Positions 1-60,596 of a stretch of 63,298 nucleotides of DNA are shown here, piece by piece; position 1 is the first letter of the stretch; every line of letters begins with the position of its first letter. The stretch comes from Azolla caroliniana (Eukaryota > Plantae > Polypodiophyta), in the NCBI GenBank assembly GCA_043228905.1, contig JBHGNT010000162.1:1-63298 (forward strand). Reading direction: 5' to 3'. The translations under genes and the position numbers were made by a program. The notes below the pieces were generated by a model. It did no database searches and had not been told where the DNA came from. It worked only from the letters and a program-made list of their open reading frames with translations.

Positions 1-528
1 AACAAGTGCGTCTCCCCAATCGCGCATTACACCCACACGAACGTAAACACGAGCACCAACGTCCCTCCAACACGAACGTAGACACGACCACCAACGTATA
101 GAATTTGCCTATAGGGACCCGCAAACCACCCAAACGGAAAAAAAACATCAAAGCGGAACACCCACCCATACCGCACACGCCACGGCAACGGCTAAGGTCA
201 ACTTGTACACGCGGCGAATGTGAACTTGCATTCCACACTTGCCCGATAGGACAACTCCTAGTGTGGTAGTCCGGTTAGCTTTCCTTGTCGTCGTCGTTAC
301 CAACCCCTCGTCCGAACGAGCGAGTACGGACACCGGTCTATCTACGTTCATCGATGTAGCACACTCGGGAGCCACCACTCGTCCCGCAGTAGCCTCCGCG
401 TGCTTAGTGTCTCGGCACTAGCGCGTGCTAGTTTAATGTGCACGTGCCCGCACACCCCTACGCGCACGCGCGGAAGTGCGCACATCTACCTACGTATGTA
501 TAAATGTTATGTTGCTCGACAAGCTCTC
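1..528 (-). repeat. Inverted copy of the array-unit spacer (reverse complement of 8083-8605)
   Basis: The reverse complement of 1-528 aligns to 8083-8605 with five 1-bp insertions (523+5=528). The spacer ORF MVAPECATSMNVDR appears on - here and on + in the array. Confidence 0.95.
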
Positions 529-984
529 TATTATAGATCATAGTACTAATGTAAGCTTAAGATAAGGATAATGAAAAGATAGATAGAAAGGAGAAAGAGA
601 AAGAAGGGTGCCGAATCCACCCGACCACCCCCGAGCGAAGGGATCGAGACGGACTCGAGCCTCGATCGGCGTCCCATACCACCGTCGTGGCGTCGAGTCG
701 TACCTGGTGCTGGCGCGCTCGCTACAAGAGTTGACCCACCACACGAGCAGAGTCTCGATGTAGTCAAAAGATGATCAAATGAGGGTAGCTAGGCCTCTTA
801 TTTATAGCGAAACCCAAGGCCCCCAGGCAAGTTCACACTTGACCTAATGGGTTGTCTCAATCCCGAGGATTAAAAGTAATCCTCCCCTTCTTTACACTCT
901 CCTTTAACCCTCACACTTATCCACGTGTATAGAATACTACGGTAAATTCTTACCACGGGATATTATATGGTCATGCCCGTAACA
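529..984 (-). repeat. 3' LTR of the Gypsy element (456 bp)
   Basis: Direct repeat of 7092-7546 with about 4 substitutions and one 1-bp indel by eye. Minus strand reads TGTTAC...CTATAATA. Confidence 0.95.
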
Positions 985-3900
985 TACTCCCCCTCTTTAA
1001 AACATTGCACTCTTGCAATGGAAAGTTAGGGAAGTTAGTTCTAAGTGTATTTTCGCGTTCCCATGTGGCATCTTTTATTGATTTATCCATCCATTTTATT
1101 TTGAATTCTCGGATTTCTTTAGTACGTAATTTTTTTGTTTTAACATCGAGAATTCTTTCTGGTACATGTGGTTTAGAAGATAATTCTTCAGAAGTAACCA
1201 GAGTTTCAGTCGTAGCTGTATTGTCGCCAGAACCTAGAAGTTCTTTTAGACGACTCACATGAAAGACTGGATGAATTCCGACACCATCGGGAAGAGCGAG
1301 ACGATAGGCTGATGACCCAATGCGTTTGAGGACTGTAAAAGGTCCACAAAACCGTGGGGCTAACTTAGCGCACTTACCCGTAGACAATGTCTTAGAATTG
1401 TGAGGTACACGTAAAAATACCTTCTGTCCAGGGTTGAATACACGAGGTTGCCTATGATGATCGGCATAAAAACGCGCTCTATCTTGAGCTGTTTTTATAT
1501 TATCTCGTGCAATATGCAACATATCTTGCATATCCTGAAGAAAGTTTTGCGTACTTCGCAACTCATCATGATGTATAGTAACATCAATCGGGGCTCGTGG
1601 CAGAAAACCATACATCAACATAAAAGGACTATATCCCGTCGACGTATGCTTGGAGCTGTTATAAGCAAACTCCAAAATTGGGAGATAACGTTCCCATTTT
1701 GTTGGTTTTGCACCAACGTATGCTCGAAGCATGTCCTCAATAATTTGATTTACTCGTTCTGTCTGTCCATCGGATTGAGGATGATCCGTGGAGCTCATGC
1801 TCAACGTAGTTTCTAACTTCTTAAAGACCTGTGTCCAGAAGTCACTAGTAAACTTTGGATCTCGATCACTCACGATATCCATCGGTAACCCATAAAAACG
1901 AAACAATTCGTCAACGAATTGGTAAGCCAATTCAGGAGCTGTTACCGTGGTTTTAGTAGCAATAAATCTGGCCATTTTAGTTAGTCGATCAACGACAACC
2001 CAGATGGCATCATGACCTTTTTGGGTGCGAGGAAGGCTAACAATAAAATCCATGGATATACTTTCCCACTTATTATTGGGAATGTCCAAGGGATGTAAAA
2101 GTCCTGCGACTTTAAGTCGCTCGGCTTTGTTAACCTGACACTGGTGACATTTAGTCACATAGCTATGTATGTCAGGACGCATCTTAGGCCAATAAAATTG
2201 AGTGGAGATGAGAACGAGTGTACGATGTATTCCAGGGTGCCCTGCTGAGGGTGCATCATGGCATTCAAAAAGAATCCTCTTTTTGACCTCGGGTAAATCT
2301 GGAACACAAACCTTCCCATTACGGTAGAGCAAACCGTTAGCAATGTGGAAGTATTCCTTCGAGGATGTGGTGGTGTCTGTTCCAGACTCAACTCTTGCCC
2401 AGTATTTTGCGAAATAACTGTCATCAGGATACTTTCCTCGAAGGTGATCATAAAGATCTGATGATATTTCAGTGAAGCTAAGCGTGTTAACTTCACGGAT
2501 GCGACTTAGTGCATCAGCGACAGTGTTCATGGAACCTTTACGATATCGTATGGAAAAATCAAAGTCCTGGATGAGATCAGCCCATCGTGCCTTACGACCT
2601 TTCAGGTCTTGTTGGTCACAAAAATATTTCAAGGACTCGTGGTCCGTAGTTACCACAAAGTGATTTCCATAAAGATAATGGCGCCATGTTTTGAGCGCAT
2701 GTATAACTGCAAATAATTCCTTTTCTTGAACGGTATACCGACATTGAGCAGAATCAAGTTTCTTACTCTCGAATGCTATCGGTTTACCATCTTGATACAA
2801 GACAGCACCTATAGCGTAATCGCTGGCATCGGTTTCAACCTCAAAAGGTTTTGAAGGATCGGGTAAAAGAAGTGAAGGAGCCTTGCAAACCAAGTCCTTG
2901 AGTTCCGTAAAGGCAAGGTCTAGTGTAGCATTCCACACAATAGGTTTTGTAGACTTACGCGTTTGACCTTTTAAAAGATCAGTAAACGGCGTCGTCAATT
3001 GGGAGTAATTACGAAGAGACTTTCGCAAAAACCCCACAAAACCAAGGAATGATCGAACTTCTCGAATATTCCGAAGAGTGGGCCAAAGCTTGATTTTCTC
3101 AATGCGAGAAGGATCAATTTCAACTCCTCGTTCGGTTATGAGATGTCCTAGATAAGTAATTGATTTCTTGAAGAACTCACATTTTGAGATCTTCGCATAA
3201 AACTGTTTGTCACGCAATGTTTGTAAAACAAAGCGGACATGTCTAGCATGTTCTTGTAATGTACGGCTATAAACTAAAATATCATCCAAGAAAATAACGA
3301 CAAATTTTCCAAGTTGTTCTCGGAAAATGTCATTCATTTCTTGTTGAAAAGTAGCCGGAGCATTGGTCAAACCAAAAGGCATAACCAAAAACTCGTAATG
3401 GCCATAGCGCGTACGAAATGCCGTTTTAGGAACATCGTCCTCACTTATTCGTATTTGATGGTAGCCAGTACGGAGATCAAGTTTCGTAAAATACCGAGCT
3501 CCCTGGAGACGGTCAATTAGATCGTCAGCCCGGGGCAATGGATACGAATTCTTGATCGTCACTTTATTCAAGCGTCGGTAATTAATACACATACGCCATG
3601 TGCCCTCTTTCTTTTTAACCAAGAGAACTGGTGCACCCCATGGAGATTTACTATAACGTATATAACCCATTCGTAAATAGTCCTTGAGTTGCTTAGATAC
3701 CTCATCTTCTTCGGATCGACTTAAGCGATACGGAGGTATACTTATTGGTGCAACACCAGGTACAATATCTATACGATGGTCTATATTACGTTTAGGAGGT
3801 AACCCATCAGGTAGTTCACTTGGAAAAACATCATGAAAATCATTTAAGATTTCATCAAGTTGTTGTTGTTCAAAATATGTTAATTGAATCGGGACATTAT

Positions 3901-4069
3901 CGATATTGTAAACGTGAATGTCCGGATCAAGTACACAATAAATAACGTAGAACAAGACAACTCGGATATTGATGGACACGAGGAAACAATCGAGAGGGAT
4001 TGTTTTTTTACACATTGAATAAAATGCGTACAATCGTTCAGTACAAAAGAAATGGAATGACGAACCCAA
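971..4069 (-). CDS. pol: Gypsy Pol: reverse transcriptase, RNase H, integrase, chromodomain
   Basis: RT motifs [36 protein letters not shown]. RNase [14 protein letters not shown]. Integrase HHCC ([11 protein letters not shown]...CHQCQ), core ISMDFI/SDRDPKF/GQTERVN and GPF motif. C-terminal chromodomain PERILD...FKIKW...ATWE. The real start is probably by fusion with the upstream ORF; the stop lies inside the 3' LTR. Confidence 0.95.
985..998 (-). other. Polypurine tract (PPT)
   Basis: Minus strand AAAGAGGGGGAGTA immediately before the TGTTAC start of the 3' LTR. Confidence 0.9.
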
Positions 4070-5403
4070 TCAATAAATAAAGAAGAGTTTTTATTATAAA
4101 ACCAGGGATAACCCAGTATTACATCGGTGGTACAAAGATTCATTACATGGAAGTCTACTTCCTCTATATAAGTATCAATAGAAATTCCTAATGAATGAAT
4201 CGCCCCGTTGATGTATTGTACTCTTCCATCAGCCAAGTGCACCGTGTAGGTGTGATCACTTACGGTGGGTTGGATTCCCCATATCTGAACCAAACGATCA
4301 TTCACAAAATTGTGTGAGCTTCCCGAATCAAATAAAAATTGTACGGGAGATCCATTGATATACCCGTTTGCACGTAGTAAATCATTGGGACCCAATACAT
4401 AGTGAGGGAAAGAACATTGACAATTACTTAAATGATGTGTATAGACCTGAAGGACATTAGGAATCTGACCTTTATGGTCTGCAGCTTTAGCTTTGTTGTC
4501 GTGCTCTTTCCGTTGGAGCTTTCGACATTGATCTTTTGTATGACCCTTCTTTTTGCAGAATACACAAAAAGGATGTTGTCGCTTACAATCGCGATCCAGG
4601 AATTCGTTGGGTGTCTTGCGTTTCCCAACAAATTGCGACTGCTTAGTCCCGGGCGCTTCGTTGGGTTTGTTATGGTCCTTCTTCGAAGTGCGTTGATAGC
4701 GAAGAACTATTTCAACGGCCTCTTCGAAGGATTTTGGATCCTTATCGTGCACTATCCAGTGATAGTCCGAATTGGGGATGCCATTGACAAAACAAGCTAT
4801 CAACCAATTGTCCCCTTCTAGACCCGATTTTTGGATTTGGGTTCTAGCATGGTGAACATAGTCTTCTAGCGAGGAAAATTTCCTGCTAGAGAGGTTCATT
4901 AAAGCTTGTGCTGCCTCGGTTCGAGAGGGAGGTTGCAGAAATTGGCCCTTAAAAACCGTGACAAAATCTGTCCAGGTATCGGGCAATTTCCCCATAGTAC
5001 GGAGGCCACGCCACCAGGCGGCGGCCTTACCCCCGAGTTCTCGGCCGACATATGCAATCTTCGTACTATCTGGCGTGGGATAGAGCTCAAAATGAGACTC
5101 CCATCGTCCCAGCCATGTGCAGATTGCTTCTTCGGTTCTTTCCTTTTTGTCTCCCGTAAATGGCTTAACGACAAATGATGGTTCACCTTGTCGCTCATCA
5201 GGTCTATTAGTCTCACGTTGTAGGCTAATGACACGTGCCTCAAGAGCACTCTGAGATTGCCGAAGTTCGGTCATCTGTTGAGCGGTGAAACTAAGGAATT
5301 GGGTTATTTGTGCCAAATACATCTCAGTGGACATTTGTCCAGGAGGATTCCCTTGAGTTCCTTCCGCTTGAGCGGATGACATCGGGTCGTTAATTTGAGC
5401 CAT
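3880..5403 (-). CDS. gag: Gypsy Gag plus aspartic protease
   Basis: Retrotransposon gag core (LGGKAAAWW...[13 protein letters not shown]), CCHC zinc knuckle [14 protein letters not shown], protease active site [11 protein letters not shown], and DVILGYPW. Confidence 0.93.
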
Positions 5404-6584
5404 TAAAGATTATTTCTGGAAAAGAAATAGGATAAGGTCAGAGATATAGTCATAACATCTTGTCGTGATGTAAACATATCATGGGCGAGCATTAATCGAT
5501 ATCATTATCTCACGTCAATACCCCTCTAGACGTATGAGATGAGGTTCAAGATCAGGTTACTATGGTAACACAAAGGTGTTTTAAAAACCATGGGGGTGAC
5601 AAATAAATGTCTTTCCCTGATCTCTATATCGATTTTTTCATGGTGGCTCCCCGAGGCTCAACCATGTATGTTCGCGTCATGAATAGTTTATACACGAAAA
5701 AAAATGTTAACAATAAACTATGTTTCGGTGCCCACATAAGTGGTTTCGGCTCTTTAAGTCCTATTACGAGGACCCCGAGGTGCACTTAGACCTTAAGTCT
5801 AAACATGTGTTATAGTCATATGTATCAAGGATGTTGTATGGTCTTGGTCATATTTGAACTCGAGACCTCGAGAACAAATACATTAAACACTTGAGCCAAC
5901 CAAGTAAGTTGCTCTTCTCGAATGCTTAATGTTTGATGCGTATAAGAGATATGCGAGGCAATTGATCATATACGTTTTTTTAAAAGAACATATATGTCAA
6001 GGGTCCTTATTTCGCCCTCATTTACCAACACTATGTTGGTACGTTACCTAACCTCAAGTCTCGTAATTACGATGGCATATGTCAAAGGGCAACCTAATGG
6101 TCAAGCCAAATGAGCCCTCGTTTCGTAGTAGGCTCACGTGGGCCATCACATGGTCACGTCATTACGAATGCCTCTCGTAAGAACGAGCTCATGGTGGCAT
6201 CGTATCCATGTAACGAGGGAAGGATGTTGGATACGTGCGTCATTGGAGCGACCTCACTTGAAGTGGGTCAAGCCCTACGTACTCAACATCATTTTGGCTA
6301 TTGGCGTTTCTTTACGTAACGAAATCGAGGTCGTCAACGGGGTTATCAACAATAAAAAAATGTTGAAAAAGGGATGGTGACAACGCCATTCTCACAAAAA
6401 TGTGAGGACGGCCACCAACATCCTTTTCCCGATCATGACAACTTTCGATATAATCACATAATAACGAATATACACATATGGTTACTTATCACATATATAC
6501 GATCAAATACGTATATATGTGACCACATATGCCTATATTCAACATATCGTTATAGTAAATAGCCACAAATGATGTGATCGAGAT

Positions 6585-6844
6585 ACGTAATCGAGGTATA
6601 TACCTCTACGCACACGAAATATCCACAAATAAGAGATCATCGTAATACGCAATGGAGGTATTGACCTCTTACGCATACGAGACCAAACGCATATCGTTTA
6701 CAACAAATCAAGGTATTAAACTCATACGCAAACGTAACATATGTTCGTGAACGTAATACGTAATTGAGGTATTAACCTCGTACGCATACGACACTCATCA
6801 CATATTATTAACATGTCAAACGAGGTATTGACCCCGTGCACATA
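6585..6844. repeat. Five degenerate GAGGT-N4-ACCTC hairpin motifs at 55-62 bp spacing in the Gypsy 5' leader
   Basis: Cores start at 6593, 6655, 6710, 6766 and 6822; the first four are followed by TACGCA. Confidence 0.75.
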
Positions 6845-7079
6845 TGTAAACGTTTTAGATAATCAATTAAAGACCACTACAACATCATTGATTTAATGAA
6901 AAAAATTACATATCAACTAAACACATGATTAGATGGGAGAAGAGAGAATAGAAAAAAAAATATGGAAAGAGTTACCGAAGTTCTTTGTTGATCGTTGTCT
7001 GGATCAAGGCCAACCGCACAATGATCGGTCAGCATCAATCAAAAGACAAATGAAAAACAAAGAAACATTAGTAAAAAAA

Positions 7080-7089
7080 TCTGATACCA
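7080..7089 (-). other. Primer binding site (tRNA-iMet)
   Basis: Minus strand TGGTATCAGA, 2 nt after the end of the 5' LTR. Confidence 0.9.
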
Positions 7090-7091
7090 AA

Positions 7092-7546
7092 TATTATAGA
7101 TCATAGTACTAATGTAAGCTTAAGATAAGGATAATGAAAAGATAGATAGAAAGGAGAAAGAGAAAAAAGGGTGCCGATCCACCCGACCACCCCCGAGCGA
7201 AGGGATCGAGACGGACTCGAGCCTCGATCGGCGTCCCATACCACCGCCGTGGCGTCGAGTCGTACCTGGTGCTGGCGCGCTCGCTACAAGAGTTGACCCA
7301 CCACACGAGCAGAGTCTCGATGTAGTCAAAAAATCATCAAATGAGGGTAGCTAGGCCTCTTATTTATAGCGAAACCCAAGGCCCCCAGGCAAGTTCACAC
7401 TTGACCTAATGGGTTGTCTCAATCCCGAGGATTAAAAGTAATCCTCCCCTTCTTTACACTCTCCTTTAACCCTCACACTTATCCACGTGTATAGAATACT
7501 ACGGTAAATTCTTACCACGGGATATTATATGGTCATGCCCGTAACA
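7092..7546 (-). repeat. 5' LTR of the Gypsy element (455 bp)
   Basis: Direct repeat of 529-984, adjacent to the PBS. Contains TATAAATA (7361-7368, minus) and G-box CACGTG (7484-7489). Confidence 0.95.
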
Positions 7547-7804
7547 CCTTTCCTCTTCGGAGTCTCTCTTGTTGTCTCTGTAGCGGCGCCCCTCCTCAAG
7601 GAACCCCTCACGACGTCGCTCGCGCCTCTCGTCATCGCACTCCCCCTCTCGGCGTCGGTCGCGCCTCTCCTCGTCAATGTCTCCCTCACGACGTCGATCG
7701 CGTCGCTCCTCTTCACGGTCCCGCCCTACAGACCTAGCATTGGCCGCGGTACACGCGGCGAGCATGATCACGGCCATGAGGAATACGGAAGTAAGCTTTG
7801 CCAT
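7547..7804 (-). pseudogene. 2S albumin-like gene, copy 0: 5' part (86 codons) cut by the Gypsy 5' LTR
   Basis: Identical to the N-terminus of full copies up to DSEEER, then runs into LTR sequence ([15 protein letters not shown], stop at 7499). Confidence 0.9.
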
Positions 7805-8670
7805 TGCGATTGTCCTTATGATCCCGGTGCTTGTCTCCTAATGGATTGTATTGACATTGCTCCCTCCACCTTTAATATATACACATGGCCATGCAATCAG
7901 AGCACATGCATGTCACTCACCACTCCCATTACCATAACGTGTGTGTCCCTGCGTACAACTCTTGCCCAAGACCCATACCAACTAGTCCACCCTCCCACAC
8001 GTCTAGGCTAGTCCTAGGTGTCGTATTGTCACCAGACAATCTGGGCGCAACCTGTGGCGGGTACTCCTCCTCCTCCTCGCGCGAGAGCTTGTCGAGCAAC
8101 ATAACATTTATACATACGTAGGTAGATGTGCGCACTCGCGCGTGCGCGTAGGGGTGTGCGGGCACGTGCACATTAAACTAGCACGCGCTAGTGCCGAGAC
8201 ACTAAGCACGCGGAGGCTACTGCGGGACGAGTGGTGGCTCCCGAGTGTGCTACATCGATGAACGTAGATAGACCGGTGTCCGTACTCGCTCGTTCGGACG
8301 AGGGGTTGGTAACGACGACGACAAGGAAAGCTAACCGGACTACCACACTAGGAGTGTCCTATCGGGCAAGTGTGGAAGCAAGTTCACATTCGCCGCGTGT
8401 ACAAGTTGACCTTAGCCGTTGCCGTGGCGTGTGCGGTATGGGTGGGTGTTCCGCTTTGATGTTTTTTTTCCGTTTGGGTGGTTTGCGGTCCCTATAGGCA
8501 AATTCTATACGTTGGTGGTCGTGTCTACGTTCGTGTTGGAGGGACGTTGGTGCTCGTGTTTACGTTCGTGTGGGTGTAATGCGCGATTGGGGAGACGCAC
8601 TTGTTCGTAAACACTTACGAGAAATTAGAGAGAGACCACGAGAATAATTTGAACAAGGTTTATGTACTAT

Positions 8671-9456
8671 TTAGAAGCGACGAATACAAGCACGAGGGCG
8701 AAGATCGCACTGTTGGAGTAGGCGGGAGGCGGCGACGCCTAGAGCTCTTTCCTCGTCATCGGCCTTGAATTGGCGACGTTGTTGACGTTCGTCCTCTTGT
8801 CGTCGAGACATGCGGTGGCGGCGTTCGTCACCCTCTCGTCGCTCACGGCTGCTATCTCTCTCGCGCTCCTCGTCCTCTTCCTCCCAGCTACGGTGTTCCC
8901 TTGATTGTTGGCCATGGCGTCGGCCTTCATCATTGCGTCGTTCCTCCTCGTCAGCATACAAGGCATCACGTAGGCGATCGCATCGATCTTCGGCGGGGAT
9001 TCGTTCGACGTTCCTGCAGCACCGTTCCGAGGGTCTTGAGTATCGAGTGTTTTCGATCCATGGGGAGCGACGTCCTTGTTCACCTTCCTCTCTTTCGGAG
9101 CGCTCTTGTAGCTCTCGGATCCGCTTGTCGATGAAATCACCGCACTCTCGCCTCAGTTCCTCGTCACGTGGCTCATCGCGACCACGGCTACGACGTTCCC
9201 TTTCCTCTTCGGAGTCTCTCTTGTTGTCTCTGTAGCGGCGCCCCTCCTCAAGGAACCCCTCACGACGTCGCTCGCGCCTCTCGTCATCGCACTCCCCCTC
9301 TCGGCGTCGGTCGCGCCTCTCCTCGTCAATGTCTCCCTCACGACGTCGATCGCGTCGCTCCTCTTCACGGTCCCGCCCTACAGACCTAGCATTGGCCGCG
9401 GTACACGCGGCGAGCATGATCACGGCCATGAGGAATACGGAAGTAAGCTTTGCCAT
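8671..9456 (-). CDS. Arg/Glu-rich 2S albumin-like storage protein precursor, copy 1 (R112 allele)
   Basis: Signal peptide MAKLTSVFLMAVIMLAACTAANA. Prolamin-type Cys skeleton LRREC..FI / RCCRNVERIP..DRCDRL / ASRLLQQC..PRAC. 68 of 261 residues are Arg. Intronless, with an RY/ABRE promoter. Confidence 0.85.
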   Translation of the reverse strand: MAKLTSVFLMAVIMLAACTAANARSVGRDREEERRDRRREGDIDEERRDRRREGECDDERRERRREGFLEEGRRYRDNKRDSEEERERRSRGRDEPRDEELRRECGDFIDKRIRELQERSEREEGEQGRRSPWIENTRYSRPSERCCRNVERIPAEDRCDRLRDALYADEEERRNDEGRRHGQQSREHRSWEEEDEERERDSSRERREGDERRHRMSRRQEDERQQRRQFKADDEERALGVAASRLLQQCDLRPRACIRRF

Positions 9457-9522
9457 TGCGATTGTCCTTATGATCCCGGTGCTTGTCTCCTAATGGATTG
9501 TATTGACATTGCTCCCTCCACC

Positions 9523-9820
9523 TTTAATATATACACATGGCCATGCAATCAGAGCACATGCATGTCACTCACCACTCCCATTACCATAACGTGTGTGTCC
9601 CTGCGTACAACTCTTGCCCAAGACCCATACCAACTAGTCCACCCTCCCACACGTCTAGGCTAGTCCTAGGTGTCGTATTGTCACCAGACAATCTGGGCGC
9701 AACCTGTGGCGGGTACTCCTCCTCCTCCTCGCGCGAGAGCTTGTCGAGCAACATAACATTTATACATACGTAGGTAGATGTGCGCACTCGCGCGTGCGCG
9801 TAGGGGTGTGCGGGCACGTG
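9523..9820 (-). promoter_or_regulatory. Seed/spore-maturation-type promoter, repeated in every unit: TATA, RY elements, ACGT/ABRE and G-box
   Basis: TATATATTAAA (minus, 9523-9533) about 70 bp upstream of ATG. RY CATGCA 9542-9547 and CATGCATG 9557-9564. ACGTGT 9589-9594, ACACGT 9649-9654, CACGTG 9815-9820. Confidence 0.8.
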
Positions 9821-10322
9821 CACATTAAACTAGCACGCGCTAGTGCCGAGACACTAAGCACGCGGAGGCTACTGCGGGACGAGTGGTGGCTCCCGAGTGT
9901 GCTACATCGATGAACGTAGATAGACCGGTGTCCGTACTCGCTCGTTCGGACGAGGGGTTGGTAACGACGACGACAAGGAAAGCTAACCGGACTACCACAC
10001 TAGGAGTGTCCTATCGGGCAAGTGTGGAAGCAAGTTCACATTCGCCGCGTGTACAAGTTGACCTTAGCCGTTGCCGTGGCGTGTGCGGTATGGGTGGGTG
10101 TTCCGCTTTGATGTTTTTTTTCCGTTTGGGTGGTTTGCGGTCCCTATAGGCAAATTCTATACGTTGGTGGTCGTGTCTACGTTCGTGTTGGAGGGACGTT
10201 GGTGCTCGTGTTTACGTTCGTGTGGGTGTAATGCGCGATTGGGGAGACGCACTTGTTCGTAAACACTTACGAGAAATTAGAGAGAGACCACGAGAATAAT
10301 TTGAACAAGGTTTATGTACTAT

Positions 10323-11085
10323 TTAGAAGCGACGAATACAAGCACGAGGGCGAAGATCGCACTGTTGGAGTAGGCGGGAGGCGGCGACGCCTAGAGCTCT
10401 TTCCTCGTCATCGGCCTTGAATTGGCGACGTTGTTGACGTTCGTCCTCTTGTCGTCGAGACATGCGGTGGCGGCGTTCGTCACCCTCTCTGGCGCTCCTC
10501 GTCCTCTTCCTCCCAGCTACGGTGTTCCCTTGATTGTTGGCCATGGCGTCGGCCTTCATCATTGCGTCGTTCCTCCTCGTCAGCATACAAGGCATCACGT
10601 AGGCGATCGCATCGATCTTCGGCGGGGATTCGTTCGACGTTCCTGCAGCAGCGTTCCGAGGGTCTTGAGTATCGAGTGTTTTCGATCCATGGGGAGCGAC
10701 GTCCTTGTTCACCTTCCTCTCTTTCGGAGCGCTCTTGTAGCTCTCGGATCCGCTTGTCGATGAAATCACCGCACTCTCGCCTCAGTTCCTCGTCACGTGG
10801 CTCATCGCGACCACGGCTACGACGTTCCCTTTCCTCTTCGGAGTCTCTCTTGTTGTCTCTGTAGCGGCGCCCCTCCTCAAGGAACCCCTCACGACGTCGC
10901 TCGCGCCTCTCGTCATCGCACTCCCCCTCTCGGCGTCGGTCGCGCCTCTCCTCGTCAATGTCTCCCTCACGACGTCGATCGCGTCGCTCCTCTTCACGGT
11001 CCCGCCCTACAGACCTAGCATTGGCCGCGGTACACGCGGCGAGCATGATCACGGCCATGAGGAATACGGAAGTAAGCTTTGCCAT
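10323..11085 (-). pseudogene. 2S albumin-like gene, copy 2, frameshifted by a 23-bp deletion (201-aa product)
   Basis: Deletion between CTCTC microhomologies at about 10489. ORF 10480-11085 loses the last two Cys. Confidence 0.9.
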
Positions 11086-11951
11086 TGCGATTGTCCTTAT
11101 GATCCCGGTGCTTGTCTCCTAATGGATTGTATTGACATTGCTCCCTCCACCTTTAATATATACACATGGCCATGCAATCAGAGCACATGCATGTCACTCA
11201 CCACTCCCATTACCATAACGTGTGTGTCCCTGCGTACAACTCTTGCCCAAGACCCATACCAACTAGTCCACCCTCCCACACGTCTAGGCTAGTCCTAGGT
11301 GTCGTATTGTCACCAGACAATCTGGGCGCAACCTGTGGCGGGTACTCCTCCTCCTCCTCGCGCGAGAGCTTGTCGAGCAACATAACATTTATACATACGT
11401 AGGTAGATGTGCGCACTCGCGCGTGCGCGTAGGGGTGTGCGGGCACGTGCACATTAAACTAGCACGCGCTAGTGCCGAGACACTAAGCACGCGGAGGCTA
11501 CTGCGGGACGAGTGGTGGCTCCCGAGTGTGCTACATCGATGAACGTAGATAGACCGGTGTCCGTACTCGCTCGTTCGGACGAGGGGTTGGTAACGACGAC
11601 GACAAGGAAAGCTAACCGGACTACCACACTAGGAGTGTCCTATCGGGCAAGTGTGGAAGCAAGTTCACATTCGCCGCGTGTACAAGTTGACCTTAGCCGT
11701 TGCCGTGGCGTGTGCGGTATGGGTGGGTGTTCCGCTTTGATGTTTTTTTTCCGTTTGGGTGGTTTGCGGTCCCTATAGGGAAATTCTATACGTTGGTGGT
11801 CGTGTCTACGTTCGTGTTGGAGGGACGTTGGTGCTCGTGTTTACGTTCGTGTGGGTGTAATGCGCGATTGGGGAGACGCACTTGTTCGTAAACACTTACG
11901 AGAAATTAGAGAGAGACCACGAGAATAATTTGAACAAGGTTTATGTACTAT

Positions 11952-12714
11952 TTAGAAGCGACGAATACAAGCACGAGGGCGAAGATCGCACTGTTGGAGT
12001 AGGCGGGAGGCGGCGACGCCTAGAGCTCTTTCCTCGTCATCGGCCTTGAATTGGCGACGTTGTTGACGTTCGTCCTCTTGTCGTCGAGACATGCGGTGGC
12101 GGCGTTCGTCACCCTCTCTGGCGCTCCTCGTCCTCTTCCTCCCAGCTACGGTGTTCCCTTGATTGTTGGCCATGGCGTCGGCCTTCATCATTGCGTCGTT
12201 CCTCCTCGTCAGCATACAAGGCATCACGTAGGCGATCGCATCGATCTTCGGCGGGGATTCGTTCGACGTTCCTGCAGCAGCGTTCCGAGGGTCTTGAGTA
12301 TCGAGTGTTTTCGATCCATGGGGAGCGACGTCCTTGTTCACCTTCCTCTCTTTCGGAGCGCTCTTGTAGCTCTCGGATCCGCTTGTCGATGAAATCACCG
12401 CACTCTCGCCTCAGTTCCTCGTCACGTGGCTCATCGCGACCACGGCTACGACGTTCCCTTTCCTCTTCGGAGTCTCTCTTGTTGTCTCTGTAGCGGCGCC
12501 CCTCCTCAAGGAACCCCTCACGACGTCGCTCGCGCCTCTCGTCATCGCACTCCCCCTCTCGGCGTCGGTCGCGCCTCTCCTCGTCAATGTCTCCCTCACG
12601 ACGTCGATCGCGTCGCTCCTCTTCACGGTCCCGCCCTACAGACCTAGCATTGGCCGCGGTACACGCGGCGAGCATGATCACGGCCATGAGGAATACGGAA
12701 GTAAGCTTTGCCAT
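11952..12714 (-). pseudogene. 2S albumin-like gene, copy 3, same 23-bp deletion
   Basis: Identical lesion at about 12118; ORF 12109-12714 is 201 aa. Confidence 0.9.
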
Positions 12715-13580
12715 TGCGATTGTCCTTATGATCCCGGTGCTTGTCTCCTAATGGATTGTATTGACATTGCTCCCTCCACCTTTAATATATACACATGGCC
12801 ATGCAATCAGAGCACATGCATGTCACTCACCACTCCCATTACCATAACGTGTGTGTCCCTGCGTACAACTCTTGCCCAAGACCCATACCAACTAGTCCAC
12901 CCTCCCACACGTCTAGGCTAGTCCTAGGTGTCGTATTGTCACCAGACAATCTGGGCGCAACCTGTGGCGGGTACTCCTCCTCCTCCTCGCGCGAGAGCTT
13001 GTCGAGCAACATAACATTTATACATACGTAGGTAGATGTGCGCACTCGCGCGTGCGCGTAGGGGTGTGCGGGCACGTGCACATTAAACTAGCACGCGCTA
13101 GTGCCGAGACACTAAGCACGCGGAGGCTACTGCGGGACGAGTGGTGGCTCCCGAGTGTGCTACATCGATGAACGTAGATAGACCGGTGTCCGTACTCGCT
13201 CGTTCGGACGAGGGGTTGGTAACGACGACGACAAGGAAAGCTAACCGGACTACCACACTAGGAGTGTCCTATCGGGCAAGTGTGGAAGCAAGTTCACATT
13301 CGCCGCGTGTACAAGTTGACCTTAGCCGTTGCCGTGGCGTGTGCGGTATGGGTGGGTGTTCCGCTTTGATGTTTTTTTTCCGTTTGGGTGGTTTGCGGTC
13401 CCTATAGGCAAATTCTATACGTTGGTGGTCGTGTCTACGTTCGTGTTGGAGGGACGTTGGTGCTCGTGTTTACGTTCGTGTGGGTGTAATGCGCGATTGG
13501 GGAGACGCACTTGTTCGTAAACACTTACGAGAAATTAGAGAGAGACCACGAGAATAATTTGAACAAGGTTTATGTACTAT

Positions 13581-14366
13581 TTAGAAGCGACGAATACAAG
13601 CACGAGGGCGAAGATCGCACTGTTGGAGTAGGCGGGAGGCGGCGACGCCTAGAGCTCTTTCCTCGTCATCGGCCTTGAATTGGCGACGTTGTTGACGTTC
13701 GTCCTCTTGTCGTCGAGACATGCGGTGGCGGCGTTCGTCACCCTCTCGTCGCTCACGGCTGCTATCTCTCTCGCGCTCCTCGTCCTCTTCCTCCCAGCTA
13801 CGGTGTTCCCTTGATTGTTGGCCATGGCGTCGGCCTTCATCATTGCGTCGTTCCTCCTCGTCAGCATACAAGGCATCACGTAGGCGATCGCATCGATCTT
13901 CGGCGGGGATTCGTTCGACGTTCCTGCAGCACCGTTCCGAGGGTCTTGAGTATCGAGTGTTTTCGATCCATGGGGAGCGACGTCCTTGTTCACCTTCCTC
14001 TCTTTCGGAGCGCTCTTGTAGCTCTCGGATCTGCTTGTCGATGAAATCACCGCACTCTCGCCTCAGTTCCTCGTCACGTGGCTCATCGCGACCACGGCTA
14101 CGACGTTCCCTTTCCTCTTCGGAGTCTCTCTTGTTGTCTCTGTAGCGGCGCCCCTCCTCAAGGAACCCCTCACGACGTCGCTCGCGCCTCTCGTCATCGC
14201 ACTCCCCCTCTCGGCGTCGGTCGCGCCTCTCCTCGTCAATGTCTCCCTCACGACGTCGATCGCGTCGCTCCTCTTCACGGTCCCGCCCTACAGACCTAGC
14301 ATTGGCCGCGGTACACGCGGCGAGCATGATCACGGCCATGAGGAATACGGAAGTAAGCTTTGCCAT
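13581..14366 (-). CDS. 2S albumin-like storage protein, copy 4
   Basis: Intact 261-aa ORF, Q112 consensus type. Confidence 0.85.
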   Translation of the reverse strand: MAKLTSVFLMAVIMLAACTAANARSVGRDREEERRDRRREGDIDEERRDRRREGECDDERRERRREGFLEEGRRYRDNKRDSEEERERRSRGRDEPRDEELRRECGDFIDKQIRELQERSEREEGEQGRRSPWIENTRYSRPSERCCRNVERIPAEDRCDRLRDALYADEEERRNDEGRRHGQQSREHRSWEEEDEERERDSSRERREGDERRHRMSRRQEDERQQRRQFKADDEERALGVAASRLLQQCDLRPRACIRRF

Positions 14367-15232
14367 TGCGATTGTCCTTATGATCCCGGTGCTTGTCTCC
14401 TAATGGATTGTATTGACATTGCTCCCTCCACCTTTAATATATACACATGGCCATGCAATCAGAGCACATGCATGTCACTCACCACTCCCATTACCATAAC
14501 GTGTGTGTCCCTGCGTACAACTCTTGCCCAAGACCCATACCAACTAGTCCACCCTCCCACACGTCTAGGCTAGTCCTAGGTGTCGTATTGTCACCAGACA
14601 ATCTGGGCGCAACCTGTGGCGGGTACTCCTCCTCCTCCTCGCGCGAGAGCTTGTCGAGCAACATAACATTTATACATACGTAGGTAGATGTGCGCACTCG
14701 CGCGTGCGCGTAGGGGTGTGCGGGCACGTGCACATTAAACTAGCACGCGCTAGTGCCGAGACACTAAGCACGCGGAGGCTACTGCGGGACGAGTGGTGGC
14801 TCCCGAGTGTGCTACATCGATGAACGTAGATAGACCGGTGTCCGTACTCGCTCGTTCGGACGAGGGGTTGGTAACGACGACGACAAGGAAAGCTAACCGG
14901 ACTACCACACTAGGAGTGTCCTATCGGGCAAGTGTGGAAGCAAGTTCACATTCGCCGCGTGTACAAGTTGACCTTAGCCGTTGCCGTGGCGTGTGCGGTA
15001 TGGGTGGGTGTTCCGCTTTGATGTTTTTTTTCCGTTTGGGTGGTTTGCGGTCCCTATAGGCAAATTCTATACGTTGGTGGTCGTGTCTACGTTCGTGTTG
15101 GAGGGACGTTGGTGCTCGTGTTTACGTTCGTGTGGGTGTAATGCGCGATTGGGGAGACGCACTTGTTCGTAAACACTTACGAGAAATTAGAGAGAGACCA
15201 CGAGAATAATTTGAACAAGGTTTATGTACTAT

Positions 15233-16018
15233 TTAGAAGCGACGAATACAAGCACGAGGGCGAAGATCGCACTGTTGGAGTAGGCGGGAGGCGGCGACGC
15301 CTAGAGCTCTTTCCTCGTCATCGGCCTTGAATTGGCGACGTTGTTGACGTTCGTCCTCTTGTCGTCGAGACATGCGGTGGCGGCGTTCGTCACCCTCTCG
15401 TCGCTCACGGCTGCTATCTCTCTCGCGCTCCTCGTCCTCTTCCTCCCAGCTACGGTGTTCCCTTGATTGTTGGCCATGGCGTCGGCCTTCATCATTGCGT
15501 CGTTCCTCCTCGTCAGCATACAAGGCATCACGTAGGCGATCGCATCGATCTTCGGCGGGGATTCGTTCGACGTTCCTGCAGCACCGTTCCGAGGGTCTTG
15601 AGTATCGAGTGTTTTCGATCCATGGGGAGCGACGTCCTTGTTCACCTTCCTCTCTTTCGGAGCGCTCTTGTAGCTCTCGGATCTGCTTGTCGATGAAATC
15701 ACCGCACTCTCGCCTCAGTTCCTCGTCACGTGGCTCATCGCGACCACGGCTACGACGTTCCCTTTCCTCTTCGGAGTCTCTCTTGTTGTCTCTGTAGCGG
15801 CGCCCCTCCTCAAGGAACCCCTCACGACGTCGCTCGCGCCTCTCGTCATCGCACTCCCCCTCTCGGCGTCGGTCGCGCCTCTCCTCGTCAATGTCTCCCT
15901 CACGACGTCGATCGCGTCGCTCCTCTTCACGGTCCCGCCCTACAGACCTAGCATTGGCCGCGGTACACGCGGCGAGCATGATCACGGCCATGAGGAATAC
16001 GGAAGTAAGCTTTGCCAT
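15233..16018 (-). CDS. 2S albumin-like storage protein, copy 5
   Basis: Intact 261-aa ORF, consensus protein. Confidence 0.85.
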   Translation of the reverse strand: MAKLTSVFLMAVIMLAACTAANARSVGRDREEERRDRRREGDIDEERRDRRREGECDDERRERRREGFLEEGRRYRDNKRDSEEERERRSRGRDEPRDEELRRECGDFIDKQIRELQERSEREEGEQGRRSPWIENTRYSRPSERCCRNVERIPAEDRCDRLRDALYADEEERRNDEGRRHGQQSREHRSWEEEDEERERDSSRERREGDERRHRMSRRQEDERQQRRQFKADDEERALGVAASRLLQQCDLRPRACIRRF

Positions 16019-16884
16019 TGCGATTGTCCTTATGATCCCGGTGCTTGTCTCCTAATGGATTGTATTGACATTGCTCCCTCCACCTTTAATATATACACAT
16101 GGCCATGCAATCAGAGCACATGCATGTCACTCACCACTCCCATTACCATAACGTGTGTGTCCCTGCGTACAACTCTTGCCCAAGACCCATACCAACTAGT
16201 CCACCCTCCCACACGTCTAGGCTAGTCCTAGGTGTCGTATTGTCACCAGACAATCTGGGCGCAACCTGTGGCGGGTACTCCTCCTCCTCCTCGCGCGAGA
16301 GCTTGTCGAGCAACATAACATTTATACATACGTAGGTAGATGTGCGCACTCGCGCGTGCGCGTAGGGGTGTGCGGGCACGTGCACATTAAACTAGCACGC
16401 GCTAGTGCCGAGACACTAAGCACGCGGAGGCTACTGCGGGACGAGTGGTGGCTCCCGAGTGTGCTACATCGATGAACGTAGATAGACCGGTGTCCGTACT
16501 CGCTCGTTCGGACGAGGGGTTGGTAACGACGACGACAAGGAAAGCTAACCGGACTACCACACTAGGAGTGTCCTATCGGGCAAGTGTGGAAGCAAGTTCA
16601 CATTCGCCGCGTGTACAAGTTGACCTTAGCCGTTGCCGTGGCGTGTGCGGTATGGGTGGGTGTTCCGCTTTGATGTTTTTTTTCCGTTTGGGTGGTTTGC
16701 GGTCCCTATAGGCAAATTCTATACGTTGGTGGTCGTGTCTACGTTCGTGTTGGAGGGACGTTGGTGCTCGTGTTTACGTTCGTGTGGGTGTAATGCGCGA
16801 TTGGGGAGACGCACTTGTTCGTAAACACTTACGAGAAATTAGAGAGAGACCACGAGAATAATTTGAACAAGGTTTATGTACTAT

Positions 16885-17670
16885 TTAGAAGCGACGAATA
16901 CAAGCACGAGGGCGAAGATCGCACTGTTGGAGTAGGCGGGAGGCGGCGACGCCTAGAGCTCTTTCCTCGTCATCGGCCTTGAATTGGCGACGTTGTTGAC
17001 GTTCGTCCTCTTGTCGTCGAGACATGCGGTGGCGGCGTTCGTCACCCTCTCGTCGCTCACGGCTGCTATCTCTCTCGCGCTCCTCGTCCTCTTCCTCCCA
17101 GCTACGGTGTTCCCTTGATTGTTGGCCATGGCGTCGGCCTTCATCATTGCGTCGTTCCTCCTCGTCAGCATACAAGGCATCACGTAGGCGATCGCATCGA
17201 TCTTCGGCGGGGATTCGTTCGACGTTCCTGCAGCACCGTTCCGAGGGTCTTGAGTATCGAGTGTTTTCGATCCATGGGGAGCGACGTCCTTGTTCACCTT
17301 CCTCTCTTTCGGAGCGCTCTTGTAGCTCTCGGATCTGCTTGTCGATGAAATCACCGCACTCTCGCCTCAGTTCCTCGTCACGTGGCTCATCGCGACCACG
17401 GCTACGACGTTCCCTTTCCTCTTCGGAGTCTCTCTTGTTGTCTCTGTAGCGGCGCCCCTCCTCAAGGAACCCCTCACGACGTCGCTCGCGCCTCTCGTCA
17501 TCGCACTCCCCCTCTCGGCGTCGGTCGCGCCTCTCCTCGTCAATGTCTCCCTCACGACGTCGATCGCGTCGCTCCTCTTCACGGTCCCGCCCTACAGACC
17601 TAGCATTGGCCGCGGTACACGCGGCGAGCATGATCACGGCCATGAGGAATACGGAAGTAAGCTTTGCCAT
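16885..17670 (-). CDS. 2S albumin-like storage protein, copy 6
   Basis: Intact 261-aa ORF, consensus protein. Confidence 0.85.
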   Translation of the reverse strand: MAKLTSVFLMAVIMLAACTAANARSVGRDREEERRDRRREGDIDEERRDRRREGECDDERRERRREGFLEEGRRYRDNKRDSEEERERRSRGRDEPRDEELRRECGDFIDKQIRELQERSEREEGEQGRRSPWIENTRYSRPSERCCRNVERIPAEDRCDRLRDALYADEEERRNDEGRRHGQQSREHRSWEEEDEERERDSSRERREGDERRHRMSRRQEDERQQRRQFKADDEERALGVAASRLLQQCDLRPRACIRRF

Positions 17671-18536
17671 TGCGATTGTCCTTATGATCCCGGTGCTTGT
17701 CTCCTAATGGATTGTATTGACATTGCTCCCTCCACCTTTAATATATACACATGGCCATGCAATCAGAGCACATGCATGTCACTCACCACTCCCATTACCA
17801 TAACGTGTGTGTCCCTGCGTACAACTCTTGCCCAAGACCCATACCAACTAGTCCACCCTCCCACACGTCTAGGCTAGTCCTAGGTGTCGTATTGTCACCA
17901 GACAATCTGGGCGCAACCTGTGGCGGGTACTCCTCCTCCTCCTCGCGCGAGAGCTTGTCGAGCAACATAACATTTATACATACGTAGGTAGATGTGCGCA
18001 CTCGCGCGTGCGCGTAGGGGTGTGCGGGCACGTGCACATTAAACTAGCACGCGCTAGTGCCGAGACACTAAGCACGCGGAGGCTACTGCGGGACGAGTGG
18101 TGGCTCCCGAGTGTGCTACATCGATGAACGTAGATAGACCGGTGTCCGTACTCGCTCGTTCGGACGAGGGGTTGGTAACGACGACGACAAGGAAAGCTAA
18201 CCGGACTACCACACTAGGAGTGTCCTATCGGGCAAGTGTGGAAGCAAGTTCACATTCGCCGCGTGTACAAGTTGACCTTAGCCGTTGCCGTGGCGTGTGC
18301 GGTATGGGTGGGTGTTCCGCTTTGATGTTTTTTTTCCGTTTGGGTGGTTTGCGGTCCCTATAGGCAAATTCTATACGTTGGTGGTCGTGTCTACGTTCGT
18401 GTTGGAGGGACGTTGGTGCTCGTGTTTACGTTCGTGTGGGTGTAATGCGCGATTGGGGAGACGCACTTGTTCGTAAACACTTACGAGAAATTAGAGAGAG
18501 ACCACGAGAATAATTTGAACAAGGTTTATGTACTAT

Positions 18537-19322
18537 TTAGAAGCGACGAATACAAGCACGAGGGCGAAGATCGCACTGTTGGAGTAGGCGGGAGGCGGCG
18601 ACGCCTAGAGCTCTTTCCTCGTCATCGGCCTTGAATTGGCGACGTTGTTGACGTTCGTCCTCTTGTCGTCGAGACATGCGGTGGCGGCGTTCGTCACCCT
18701 CTCGTCGCTCACGGCTGCTATCTCTCTCGCGCTCCTCGTCCTCTTCCTCCCAGCTACGGTGTTCCCTTGATTGTTGGCCATGGCGTCGGCCTTCATCATT
18801 GCGTCGTTCCTCCTCGTCAGCATACAAGGCATCACGTAGGCGATCGCATCGATCTTCGGCGGGGATTCGTTCGACGTTCCTGCAGCACCGTTCCGAGGGT
18901 CTTGAGTATCGAGTGTTTTCGATCCATGGGGAGCGACGTCCTTGTTCACCTTCCTCTCTTTCGGAGCGCTCTTGTAGCTCTCGGATCTGCTTGTCGATGA
19001 AATCACCGCACTCTCGCCTCAGTTCCTCGTCACGTGGCTCATCGCGACCACGGCTACGACGTTCCCTTTCCTCTTCGGAGTCTCTCTTGTTGTCTCTGTA
19101 GCGGCGCCCCTCCTCAAGGAACCCCTCACGACGTCGCTCGCGCCTCTCGTCATCGCACTCCCCCTCTCGGCGTCGGTCGCGCCTCTCCTCGTCAATGTCT
19201 CCCTCACGACGTCGATCGCGTCGCTCCTCTTCACGGTCCCGCCCTACAGACCTAGCATTGGCCGCGGTACACGCGGCGAGCATGATCACGGCCATGAGGA
19301 ATACGGAAGTAAGCTTTGCCAT
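18537..19322 (-). CDS. 2S albumin-like storage protein, copy 7
   Basis: Intact 261-aa ORF, consensus protein. Confidence 0.85.
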   Translation of the reverse strand: MAKLTSVFLMAVIMLAACTAANARSVGRDREEERRDRRREGDIDEERRDRRREGECDDERRERRREGFLEEGRRYRDNKRDSEEERERRSRGRDEPRDEELRRECGDFIDKQIRELQERSEREEGEQGRRSPWIENTRYSRPSERCCRNVERIPAEDRCDRLRDALYADEEERRNDEGRRHGQQSREHRSWEEEDEERERDSSRERREGDERRHRMSRRQEDERQQRRQFKADDEERALGVAASRLLQQCDLRPRACIRRF

Positions 19323-20188
19323 TGCGATTGTCCTTATGATCCCGGTGCTTGTCTCCTAATGGATTGTATTGACATTGCTCCCTCCACCTTTAATATATAC
19401 ACATGGCCATGCAATCAGAGCACATGCATGTCACTCACCACTCCCATTACCATAACGTGTGTGTCCCTGCGTACAACTCTTGCCCAAGACCCATACCAAC
19501 TAGTCCACCCTCCCACACGTCTAGGCTAGTCCTAGGTGTCGTATTGTCACCAGACAATCTGGGCGCAACCTGTGGCGGGTACTCCTCCTCCTCCTCGCGC
19601 GAGAGCTTGTCGAGCAACATAACATCTATACATACGTAGGTAGATGTGCGCACTCGCGCGTGCGCGTAGGGGTGTGCGGGCACGTGCACATTAAACTAGC
19701 ACGCGCTAGTGCCGAGACACTAAGCACGCGGAGGCTACTGCGGGACGAGTGGTGGCTCCCGAGTGTGCTACATCGATGAACGTAGATAGACCGGTGTCCG
19801 TACTCGCTCGTTCGGACGAGGGGTTGGTAACGACGACGACAAGGAAAGCTAACCGGACTACCACACTAGGAGTGTCCTATCGGGCAAGTGTGGAAGCAAG
19901 TTCACATTCGCCGCGTGTACAAGTTGACCTTAGCCGTTGCCGTGGCGTGTGCGGTATGGGTGGGTGTTCCGCTTTGATGTTTTTTTTCCGTTTGGGTGGT
20001 TTGCGGTCCCTATAGGCAAATTCTATACGTTGGTGGTCGTGTCTACGTTCGTGTTGGAGGGACGTTGGTGCTCGTGTTTACGTTCGTGTGGGTGTAATGC
20101 GCGATTGGGGAGACGCACTTGTTCGTAAACACTTACGAGAAATTAGAGAGAGACCACGAGAATAATTTGAACAAGGTTTATGTACTAT

Positions 20189-20974
20189 TTAGAAGCGACG
20201 AATACAAGCACGAGGGCGAAGATCGCACTGTTGGAGTAGGCGGGAGGCGGCGACGCCTAGAGCTCTTTCCTCGTCATCGGCCTTGAATTGGCGACGTTGT
20301 TGACGTTCGTCCTCTTGTCGTCGAGACATGCGGTGGCGGCGTTCGTCACCCTCTCGTCGCTCACGGATGCTATCTCTCTCGCGCTCCTCGTCCTCTTCCT
20401 CCCAGCTACGGTGTTCCCTTGATTGTTGGCCATGGCGTCGGCCTTCATCATTGCGTCGTTCCTCCTCGTCAGCATACAAGGCATCACGTAGGCGATCGCA
20501 TCGATCTTCGGCGGGGATTCGTTCGACGTTCCTGCAGCACCGTTCCGAGGGTCTTGAGTATCGAGTGTTTTCGATCCATGGGGAGCGACGTCCTTGTTCA
20601 CCTTCCTCTCTTTCGGAGCGCTCTTGTAGCTCTCGGATCTGCTTGTCGATGAAATCACCGCACTCTCGCCTCAGTTCCTCGTCACGTGGCTCATCGCGAC
20701 CACGGCTACGACGTTCCCTTTCCTCTTCGGAGTCTCTCTTGTTGTCTCTGTAGCGGCGCCCCTCCTCAAGGAACCCCTCACGACGTCGCTCGCGCCTCTC
20801 GTCATCGCACTCCCCCTCTCGGCGTCGGTCGCGCCTCTCCTCGTCAATGTCTCCCTCACGACGTCGATCGCGTCGCTCCTCTTCACGGTCCCGCCCTACA
20901 GACCTAGCATTGGCCGCGGTACACGCGGCGAGCATGATCACGGCCATGAGGAATACGGAAGTAAGCTTTGCCAT
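20189..20974 (-). CDS. 2S albumin-like storage protein, copy 8 (S203I)
   Basis: Intact 261-aa ORF, RDSIRE instead of RDSSRE. Confidence 0.85.
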   Translation of the reverse strand: MAKLTSVFLMAVIMLAACTAANARSVGRDREEERRDRRREGDIDEERRDRRREGECDDERRERRREGFLEEGRRYRDNKRDSEEERERRSRGRDEPRDEELRRECGDFIDKQIRELQERSEREEGEQGRRSPWIENTRYSRPSERCCRNVERIPAEDRCDRLRDALYADEEERRNDEGRRHGQQSREHRSWEEEDEERERDSIRERREGDERRHRMSRRQEDERQQRRQFKADDEERALGVAASRLLQQCDLRPRACIRRF

Positions 20975-21840
20975 TGCGATTGTCCTTATGATCCCGGTGC
21001 TTGTCTCCTAATGGATTGTATTGACATTGCTCCCTCCACCTTTAATATATACACATGGCCATGCAATCAGAGCACATGCATGTCACTCACCACTCCCATT
21101 ACCATAACGTGTGTGTCCCTGCGTACAACTCTTGCCCAAGACCCATACCAACTAGTCCACCCTCCCACACGTCTAGGCTAGTCCTAGGTGTCGTATTGTC
21201 ACCAGACAATCTGGGCGCAACCTGTGGCGGGTACTCCTCCTCCTCCTCGCGCGAGAGCTTGTCGAGCAACATAACATCTATACATACGTAGGTAGATGTG
21301 CGCACTCGCGCGTGCGCGTAGGGGTGTGCGGGCACGTGCACATTAAACTAGCACGCGCTAGTGCCGAGACACTAAGCACGCGGAGGCTACTGCGGGACGA
21401 GTGGTGGCTCCCGAGTGTGCTACATCGATGAACGTAGATAGACCGGTGTCCGTACTCGCTCGTTCGGACGAGGGGTTGGTAACGACGACGACAAGGAAAG
21501 CTAACCGGACTACCACACTAGGAGTGTCCTATCGGGCAAGTGTGGAAGCAAGTTCACATTCGCCGCGTGTACAAGTTGACCTTAGCCGTTGCCGTGGCGT
21601 GTGCGGTATGGGTGGGTGTTCCGCTTTGATGTTTTTTTTCCGTTTGGGTGGTTTGCGGTCCCTATAGGCAAATTCTATACGTTGGTGGTCGTGTCTACGT
21701 TCGTGTTGGAGGGACGTTGGTGCTCGTGTTTACGTTCGTGTGGGTGTAATGCGCGATTGGGGAGACGCACTTGTTCGTAAACACTTACGAGAAATTAGAG
21801 AGAGACCACGAGAATAATTTGAACAAGGTTTATGTACTAT

Positions 21841-60593: not shown

Positions 60594-60596
60594 AAG

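What the first reader, a model, noticed from the sequence alone, without database searches (positions are those of the whole stretch)
1..7600. Gypsy element without TSD at an orientation switch of the array: probable chimeric element marking an inversion breakpoint
Seen: the left flank is array spacer in reverse orientation, ending at CTCTC (= GAGAG, unit 8083-8087). The right flank is CDS in forward orientation, starting CCTTT. The two flanks come from different unit positions and opposite strands, and the LTRs differ at about 5 sites, more than most neighbouring array units differ over 1.65 kb. Known: LTR integration makes a 5-bp TSD, and recombination between two inverted copies swaps flanks. 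Inferred: two independent insertions of the same family in the array recombined and inverted the block between them.
Basis: partly seen in the sequence, partly recalled or inferred. Interest (0 to 1): 0.7.

Follow-up and report, generated by a model that had tools for sequence, protein, structure and literature searches.

The report
Hybrid retrotransposon flips seed-protein gene array
A jumping gene sits exactly where a long tandem run of albumin-like storage-protein genes reverses direction and lacks the usual insertion footprint, so it is likely a hybrid of two separate insertions marking one end of an inversion, a known kind of event, although the other end is missing from this assembly and an assembly join is not excluded.

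Summary
Observation confirmed. The window is a whole unplaced contig. A 7,018-bp chromodomain Ty3/gypsy element (529-7546, minus strand) has reversed array spacer on its left and forward albumin-like coding sequence on its right, each cut exactly at an LTR end, with no target-site duplication (TSD). Of 41 other two-LTR copies examined, 39 have an exact 5-bp TSD and two have altered ones. The element looks chimeric: its right part shares three alleles with one other copy only, its left LTR lacks that copy's LTR allele, and the LTRs differ at 4 substitutions, against about 0.45 expected from its youth. Whether the join is genomic is open. No reciprocal partner was found in six searches or in the six contigs carrying this array type. 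The contig ends 528 bp past the junction, in a tip with error-like insertions. Short-read contigs showed neither these junctions nor a control insertion. Most likely (about 50%) a real inversion breakpoint from ectopic recombination, with the partner unassembled; about 35% an assembly or single-molecule chimera. This is a known class of event. The scan's notes held nothing like the array unit on other DNA.

The parts
1..528 (-). Array spacer in reverse orientation (= reverse complement of unit stretch 8083-8605, 1652-bp unit type); contig tip with 5 error-like inserted bases
524..528 (+). Left target pentamer CTCTC (GAGAG at 8083-8087 in a forward unit, 279 bp upstream of the start codon)
529..984 (-). 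3' LTR of the element (456 bp with one private insertion); ends TG...TA in element sense
987..998 (-). Polypurine tract, 2 nt from the 3' LTR
   Evidence: sequence
971..4015 (-). pol frame: RT, RNase H, integrase, chromodomain (1014 aa from first ATG)
3880..5403 (-). gag-protease frame (507 aa). The gag-pol frame is broken near 3.9 kb at a site private to this copy; 20 of 31 other copies have one frame over 1400 aa
6458..7166 (.). Stretch with alleles at 6458, 6620 and 6914 shared only with copy L094 (of 35), and 7166 shared only with L093 and L094
7080..7089 (-). Primer-binding site TGGTATCAGA (initiator Met tRNA type; label recalled)
   Evidence: sequence
7092..7546 (-). 5' LTR of the element (455 bp); carries an allele pair at 7332/7335 found once in the whole assembly
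7547..7551 (+). Right target pentamer CCTTT (same site intact at 9199-9203 in the next unit)
7547..7804 (-). First 86 codons of an albumin-like gene cut by the element
7547..59902 (-). Tandem array of 1.65-kb units, each with a 261-aa prolamin-superfamily (2S-albumin-like) gene; 32 promoter-motif copies in this contig
59903..63298 (+). Ty1/copia element that interrupts the array; the contig ends inside it

Best explanation
The element is likely a hybrid of two young copies of one chromodomain Ty3/gypsy family that had inserted in opposite orientation into the albumin-like gene array, and a crossover between them would have inverted the block of units in between, leaving this copy without a target-site duplication at an orientation switch. 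Shown: the orientation switch, both junctions exactly at LTR ends, the missing TSD, and the mosaic alleles. Inferred: two independent integrations (one in a coding sequence at CCTTT, one in the spacer at GAGAG), a homologous crossover inside the internal region (between about 780 and 6458, perhaps 1537-2893), and a reciprocal element with swapped pentamers that was not assembled.
For: No TSD here, against exact 5-bp TSDs in 39 of 41 other two-LTR copies (30 of 31, 9 of 10). The two exceptions have a TSD beyond an added end piece (L093) or 4 of 5 matching bases (L155). The family does insert into this array: C113 and C117 hold copies with TSDs. Alleles at 6458, 6620 and 6914 are shared only with L094 among 35 copies; L094 carries the 7166 allele in both LTRs, while the window has it only in the right LTR. 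At most 3 internal substitutions set this copy apart from its sub-lineage in 6.1 kb, which predicts about 0.45 LTR differences; 4 are seen (Poisson P 0.001, or 0.04 at the upper rate bound). Parsimony (inference): a real inversion needs one lost partner piece, whereas a misjoin needs two separately lost junctions plus a wrong join. The assembly does lose junctions in this array: the Copia's second junction is absent.
Against: No partner junction in G000: 0 hits. The right LTR's private allele pair occurs once, and the variant private to the three adjoining units occurs only there. All 96 marker hits of this unit type lie on six contigs; their array parts were all read and show no other switch. 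The contig ends 528 bp beyond the junction, whereas comparable array flanks run 6.3, 10.0 and 10.2 kb. The tip has 4 singleton events (7.6 per kb, against 0-0.5 per kb in the other stretches), as expected of one uncorrected read, although the start of C430 shows a similar cluster. LTR site 156 changes repeatedly inside TSD-bearing copies, and site 1536 is a CpG; without site 156 the Poisson P is 0.01-0.14. LTR gene conversion can mimic part of the signal (PMC7251063, passages).
Confidence: 0.5

Rival explanations
1. Assembly misjoin or single-molecule chimera: two intact insertions exist in the array in opposite orientation, and the contig tip was joined through their near-identical 7-kb bodies, or rests on one somatic or library-made recombinant molecule.
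For: Only 528 bp of left flank, at a contig end. Error-like insertions are confined to 1-614. The LTR-end motif occurs 1,263 times in the genome, and close copies differ by 18-30 substitutions in 7 kb. The array is broken over many unplaced contigs. No partner is assembled.
Against: Neither of the two flanks that intact elements would need is assembled. Insertions of the same size in the same array were assembled with both flanks (C113, C238). An error cluster also occurs at the tip of pure-array contig C430, so it need not mark a chimera.
Confidence: 0.35
2. Real but non-reciprocal rearrangement: recombination or break-induced copying between two copies gave this hybrid, and the reciprocal product was deleted, segregated away (two array loci) or never formed.
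For: Partner junctions, a direct array-to-array inverted join and the twin of the right LTR are all absent.
Against: C109 holds an array boundary on the gene-downstream side; if it belongs to the same locus and haplotype, a second orientation switch is required. A partner between oppositely oriented blocks cannot be removed by unequal crossover between direct repeats alone (inference).
Confidence: 0.1
3. One aberrant integration: the two ends of a single cDNA were joined to different array units on opposite strands.
For: The family has a non-canonical TA end, and two copies (L093 and the start of C117) carry an inverted piece of the other LTR end, so odd products occur.
Against: One cDNA should start with identical LTRs. 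Here they differ at 4 sites, two of them (75, 244) with both alleles fixed in other copies. The family makes ordinary TSDs in 39 of 41 copies.
Confidence: 0.05

Closest known systems
Inversion by ectopic recombination between two inverted transposon copies: Galileo, Drosophila buzzatii inversion 2z3 (PMC2775673, passages)
   Same: A chimeric copy at an orientation switch with non-matching target pentamers
   Different: There both breakpoint copies were found, in opposite orientation with exchanged TSDs; here only one is assembled. Galileo is a DNA transposon, this is an LTR element, and the flanks here are units of one gene array.
Intact plant LTR elements without TSDs from unequal homologous recombination (PMC7251063 and PMC4079214, passages; 198 intact copies without TSD against 1,175 with TSD for pear Cassandra)
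   Same: Two LTRs, PBS and PPT present, no TSD, LTRs apparently from different parents
   Different: Those are usually read as deletions between co-oriented copies (recalled). Here the repeated flanks reveal opposite orientation, which points to an inversion or a misjoin.
Plant chromoviruses (Ty3/gypsy with an integrase chromodomain)
   Same: Domain order gag, protease, RT, RNase H, integrase, chromodomain; 5-bp TSD in the family
   Different: LTRs end TG...TA, a non-canonical motif reported among plant LTR elements (10.1101/137141, passages; its Supplementary Table S2 not seen). Clade not determined.

Membership tests
Ty3/gypsy chromovirus | Two direct LTRs with PBS and PPT inside | tested here: met
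Ty3/gypsy chromovirus | Order gag-protease-RT-RNase H-integrase | tested here: met
   Pfam
Ty3/gypsy chromovirus | Chromodomain at the integrase C-terminus | tested here: met
   PF00385, 29.3 bits against cut-off 25.1
Ty3/gypsy chromovirus | Clade placement (Tekay, Reina, Tcn1, Galadriel, CRM; names recalled) | not tested
   no RT tree with references was built
Single intact insertion | 5-bp TSD and collinear flanks | tested here: not met
   CTCTC against CCTTT, flanks on opposite strands
Transposon-mediated inversion by ectopic recombination | Element at an orientation switch with non-matching target sites | tested here: met
Transposon-mediated inversion by ectopic recombination | Breakpoint copy is chimeric | tested here: met
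   moderate support; weakened by the recurrent site 156
Transposon-mediated inversion by ectopic recombination | Second copy in opposite orientation with exchanged TSDs | tested here: inconclusive
   0 hits, but the array is fragmented and a control junction is missing too
Transposon-mediated inversion by ectopic recombination | Both junctions on one physical molecule | not testable with these tools
   only short-read contigs were offered; the positive control was not seen
2S albumin / prolamin superfamily (array gene) | Cysteine-pattern storage-protein domain | tested here: inconclusive
   PF00234 at 21.6 bits against cut-off 21.7; Atlas hits to 2S-albumin clusters score under 0.9

The most novel reading that the evidence does not exclude
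A very recent, real inversion inside a tandem array of hundreds of near-identical storage-protein genes, made by an active TG...TA chromovirus family that inserts into the array repeatedly. Such breakpoints would cut the array into oppositely oriented blocks that homogenise separately, which could explain the distinct 1652-, 1649- and 1655-bp unit types and offer a datable test of how giant coding arrays evolve in concert.
Probability: 0.2. Interest if true: 0.55.

Novelty: new member of a known kind. Interest (0 to 1): 0.28.

Why it matters
If real, it is a young example of retrotransposon-driven inversion whose orientation switch is visible only because both flanks are units of one gene array, and it shows how such an array can be rearranged. 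If it is an artefact, it is a warning that TSD-less full-length elements at contig tips in repeat arrays can be assembly chimeras and that their LTR-divergence ages are meaningless. The mechanism itself is established. The array, with 432 promoter-motif copies in the assembly, is the more unusual feature.

Tried and rejected
Partner searches in G000 all gave 0 hits: exact swapped junctions, with up to 25 free bases, and a direct array-to-array inverted join. The right LTR's private allele pair gave 1 hit, the window. The left LTR's allele pair gave 15 hits; the 12 besides C117 and the window lie on chromosome-scale contigs, and none of their flanks is a partner.

Read support: 22 runs were listed, all as Logan contigs. 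Laying 4 runs on 7060-9230 showed no joint for either window junction, either partner junction or the C113 control insertion. Laying 3 runs of sample S1 on 9125-9240 showed no LTR loose end at the CCTTT site or at the C113 control site; 16 of 17 loose ends were shown. The control failed, so this says nothing either way. Those runs carry many alleles of the 1655-bp unit type and may lack this haplotype.

The shared-polymorphism test gave 3 of 4 LTR differences against 3 of 23 in other copies (Fisher P 0.025). It was downgraded because site 156 differed between the two LTRs in 7 of 10 copies picked by that allele. LTR difference alone as proof of chimerism was rejected (TSD copies with 3-5 differences). 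A fold-back read chimera was rejected, since the LTRs are direct and not mirrored. Contig depth was not used as copy number.

Dropped before counting TSDs: 6 of 38 stretches and 10 of 20 held no full LTR pair. Most were the other-side fetch of a counted copy; three had incomplete ends and one LTR on C7 had no mate in range. Of the 284 hits of the 1655-bp unit type, 100 were listed and only parts of five array contigs plus C6 and C61 were read. Literature: searches returned no paper; one search returned two listings unrelated to such an array.

Full report
Observation. The window is the whole unplaced contig G000:C162 of a 523-Mb plant assembly. Bases 1-528 are array spacer in reverse orientation, 529-984 and 7092-7546 are direct LTRs, and 7547-59902 is a forward array of 1.65-kb units. 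The left flank ends CTCTC, equal to GAGAG at 8083-8087 of a forward unit, 279 bp upstream of the start codon. The right flank begins CCTTT inside a coding sequence. The genes of both blocks would point towards the element.

The element. It lies on the minus strand with gag, protease, RT, RNase H, integrase and a chromodomain, a primer-binding site at 7080-7089 and a polypurine tract at 987-998. It is a chromovirus-type Ty3/gypsy element; the clade was not tested. The family is large (1,263 hits of an LTR-end motif) and young, with many identical LTR pairs. Its LTRs end TG...TA, a non-canonical motif already reported (10.1101/137141, passages). This copy's gag-pol frame is broken near 3.9 kb at a private site, while 20 of 31 other copies have one frame over 1400 aa.

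The missing TSD is exceptional. Exact 5-bp TSDs flank 30 of 31 two-LTR copies and 9 of 10. L093 has its TSD beyond an added inverted end piece, and L155 matches at 4 of 5 bases. Most of these copies were picked by likeness to the window's LTR, seven by position. Two copies sit in this same array with normal TSDs (C113, C117), so the array is a repeated target. Both window junctions coincide with the LTR termini, as integrase-made junctions do (inference).

Chimerism. The LTRs differ at 4 substitutions and 1 private insertion. Alleles at 6458, 6620 and 6914 are shared with L094 alone among 35 copies. L094 has the 7166 allele in both LTRs, whereas the window has it only on the right. At most 3 internal substitutions distinguish this copy, predicting about 0.45 LTR differences against 4 observed (P 0.001; 0.04 at the upper rate bound). 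Against this, site 156 mutates repeatedly, and without it P is 0.01-0.14. Site 1536 is a CpG, the right LTR differs from L094 at three sites, TSD-bearing copies with 3-5 differences exist, and gene conversion affects LTRs (PMC7251063, passages). The support is moderate, and an LTR age for this copy would be invalid.

No partner is assembled. Swapped junctions, exact or with free bases, and a direct inverted join gave 0 hits. The window's own junctions gave 1 hit each. The right LTR's private alleles occur once, and a variant of the three adjoining units occurs only there. The array has three unit types: 96 marker hits for 1652 bp, 56 for 1649 bp and 284 for 1655 bp. Both flanks are of the 1652 type, whose six contigs were read over all their array parts and show no other switch. 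The assembly also lacks the second junction of the Copia at 59903, so absence here is weak evidence.

Real or artefact. The contig ends 528 bp past the left junction, while comparable flanks run 6.3-10.2 kb. The first 614 bases hold 6 inserted bases; the flank has 4 singleton events, against 0-0.5 per kb in other array stretches. This suggests a single uncorrected read, although the tip of pure-array contig C430 looks similar. On the other side, a misjoin needs two junctions lost separately plus a wrong join, whereas a real inversion needs one lost piece, and same-sized insertions in C113 and C238 were assembled correctly. Public data did not decide it: only short-read contigs were offered, and neither the test junctions nor the C113 control appeared.

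Mechanism. Most likely (0.5) two insertions in opposite orientation recombined in their internal regions and inverted the units between them, with the reciprocal element unassembled. Rivals are a misjoin or single-molecule chimera (0.35), a non-reciprocal real event (0.1) and one aberrant integration (0.05).

Comparison. The model matches the Galileo inversion 2z3, with chimeric copies and exchanged TSDs (PMC2775673, passages), except that only one breakpoint is in hand. TSD-less intact LTR elements from unequal recombination are a recognised class in plants (PMC7251063 and PMC4079214, passages). Other papers were seen as search listings only. It works like a transposon-mediated inversion, but membership is unproven because the partner test is inconclusive.

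Verdict. A real sequence feature of a known kind, with a substantial chance of being an assembly product. Interest 0.28. The array is more unusual than the breakpoint: 432 promoter-motif copies of a 2S-albumin-like gene. One literature search gave nothing on it, and the scan's notes held no look-alike.

Noticed in passing
window 7547-59902; G000 C109, C113, C238, C304, C315, C316, C364, C426, C430, C487, C585 and unlisted contigs: 432 copies of the promoter motif of a 261-aa 2S-albumin-like gene, in three unit types (1652, 1649, 1655 bp); 98 of the 100 listed lie on small contigs. The 1655 type may be a second haplotype or locus.
   Followed up: partly
L093 (G000:C3:1575006-1582111) and G000:C117:1-419: The element's TA end is extended by an inverted piece of the other LTR end, so that the integrated end reads CA; L093 then has a TSD (GGGAT). 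This looks like aberrant cDNA rescued by a second canonical end.
   Followed up: partly
window 529-534 and the family: LTRs end TG...TA (TG...CTAATA in a diverged subfamily) yet integrate with 5-bp TSDs.
   Followed up: partly
window 59903-63298: A Copia element interrupts the array inside a gene; its LTR holds a 55-bp tandem repeat, it has an in-frame stop near 61751, and its second junction is not assembled.
   Followed up: partly
G000:C238:29510-36777: A different 7.3-kb LTR element is inserted in the array with a short duplication (ACGG, or ACGGT by another cut).
   Followed up: no
window 8671-13580: The three units next to the element share a variant found nowhere else in the assembly; two also share a 23-bp deletion that shortens the frame to 201 aa.
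   Followed up: partly
G000:C117, C6:14815812-14817325, C20:1401155-1401847: Degenerate array pieces mixed with older insertions (C117) and lone copies on chromosome-scale contigs; C6 may lie near the array's true place.
   Followed up: no
L094 (G000:C20:7775759-7782750): The closest relative of the element's right part has a short replaced stretch matching window 6100-6180 and a 27-bp deletion in one LTR.
   Followed up: no
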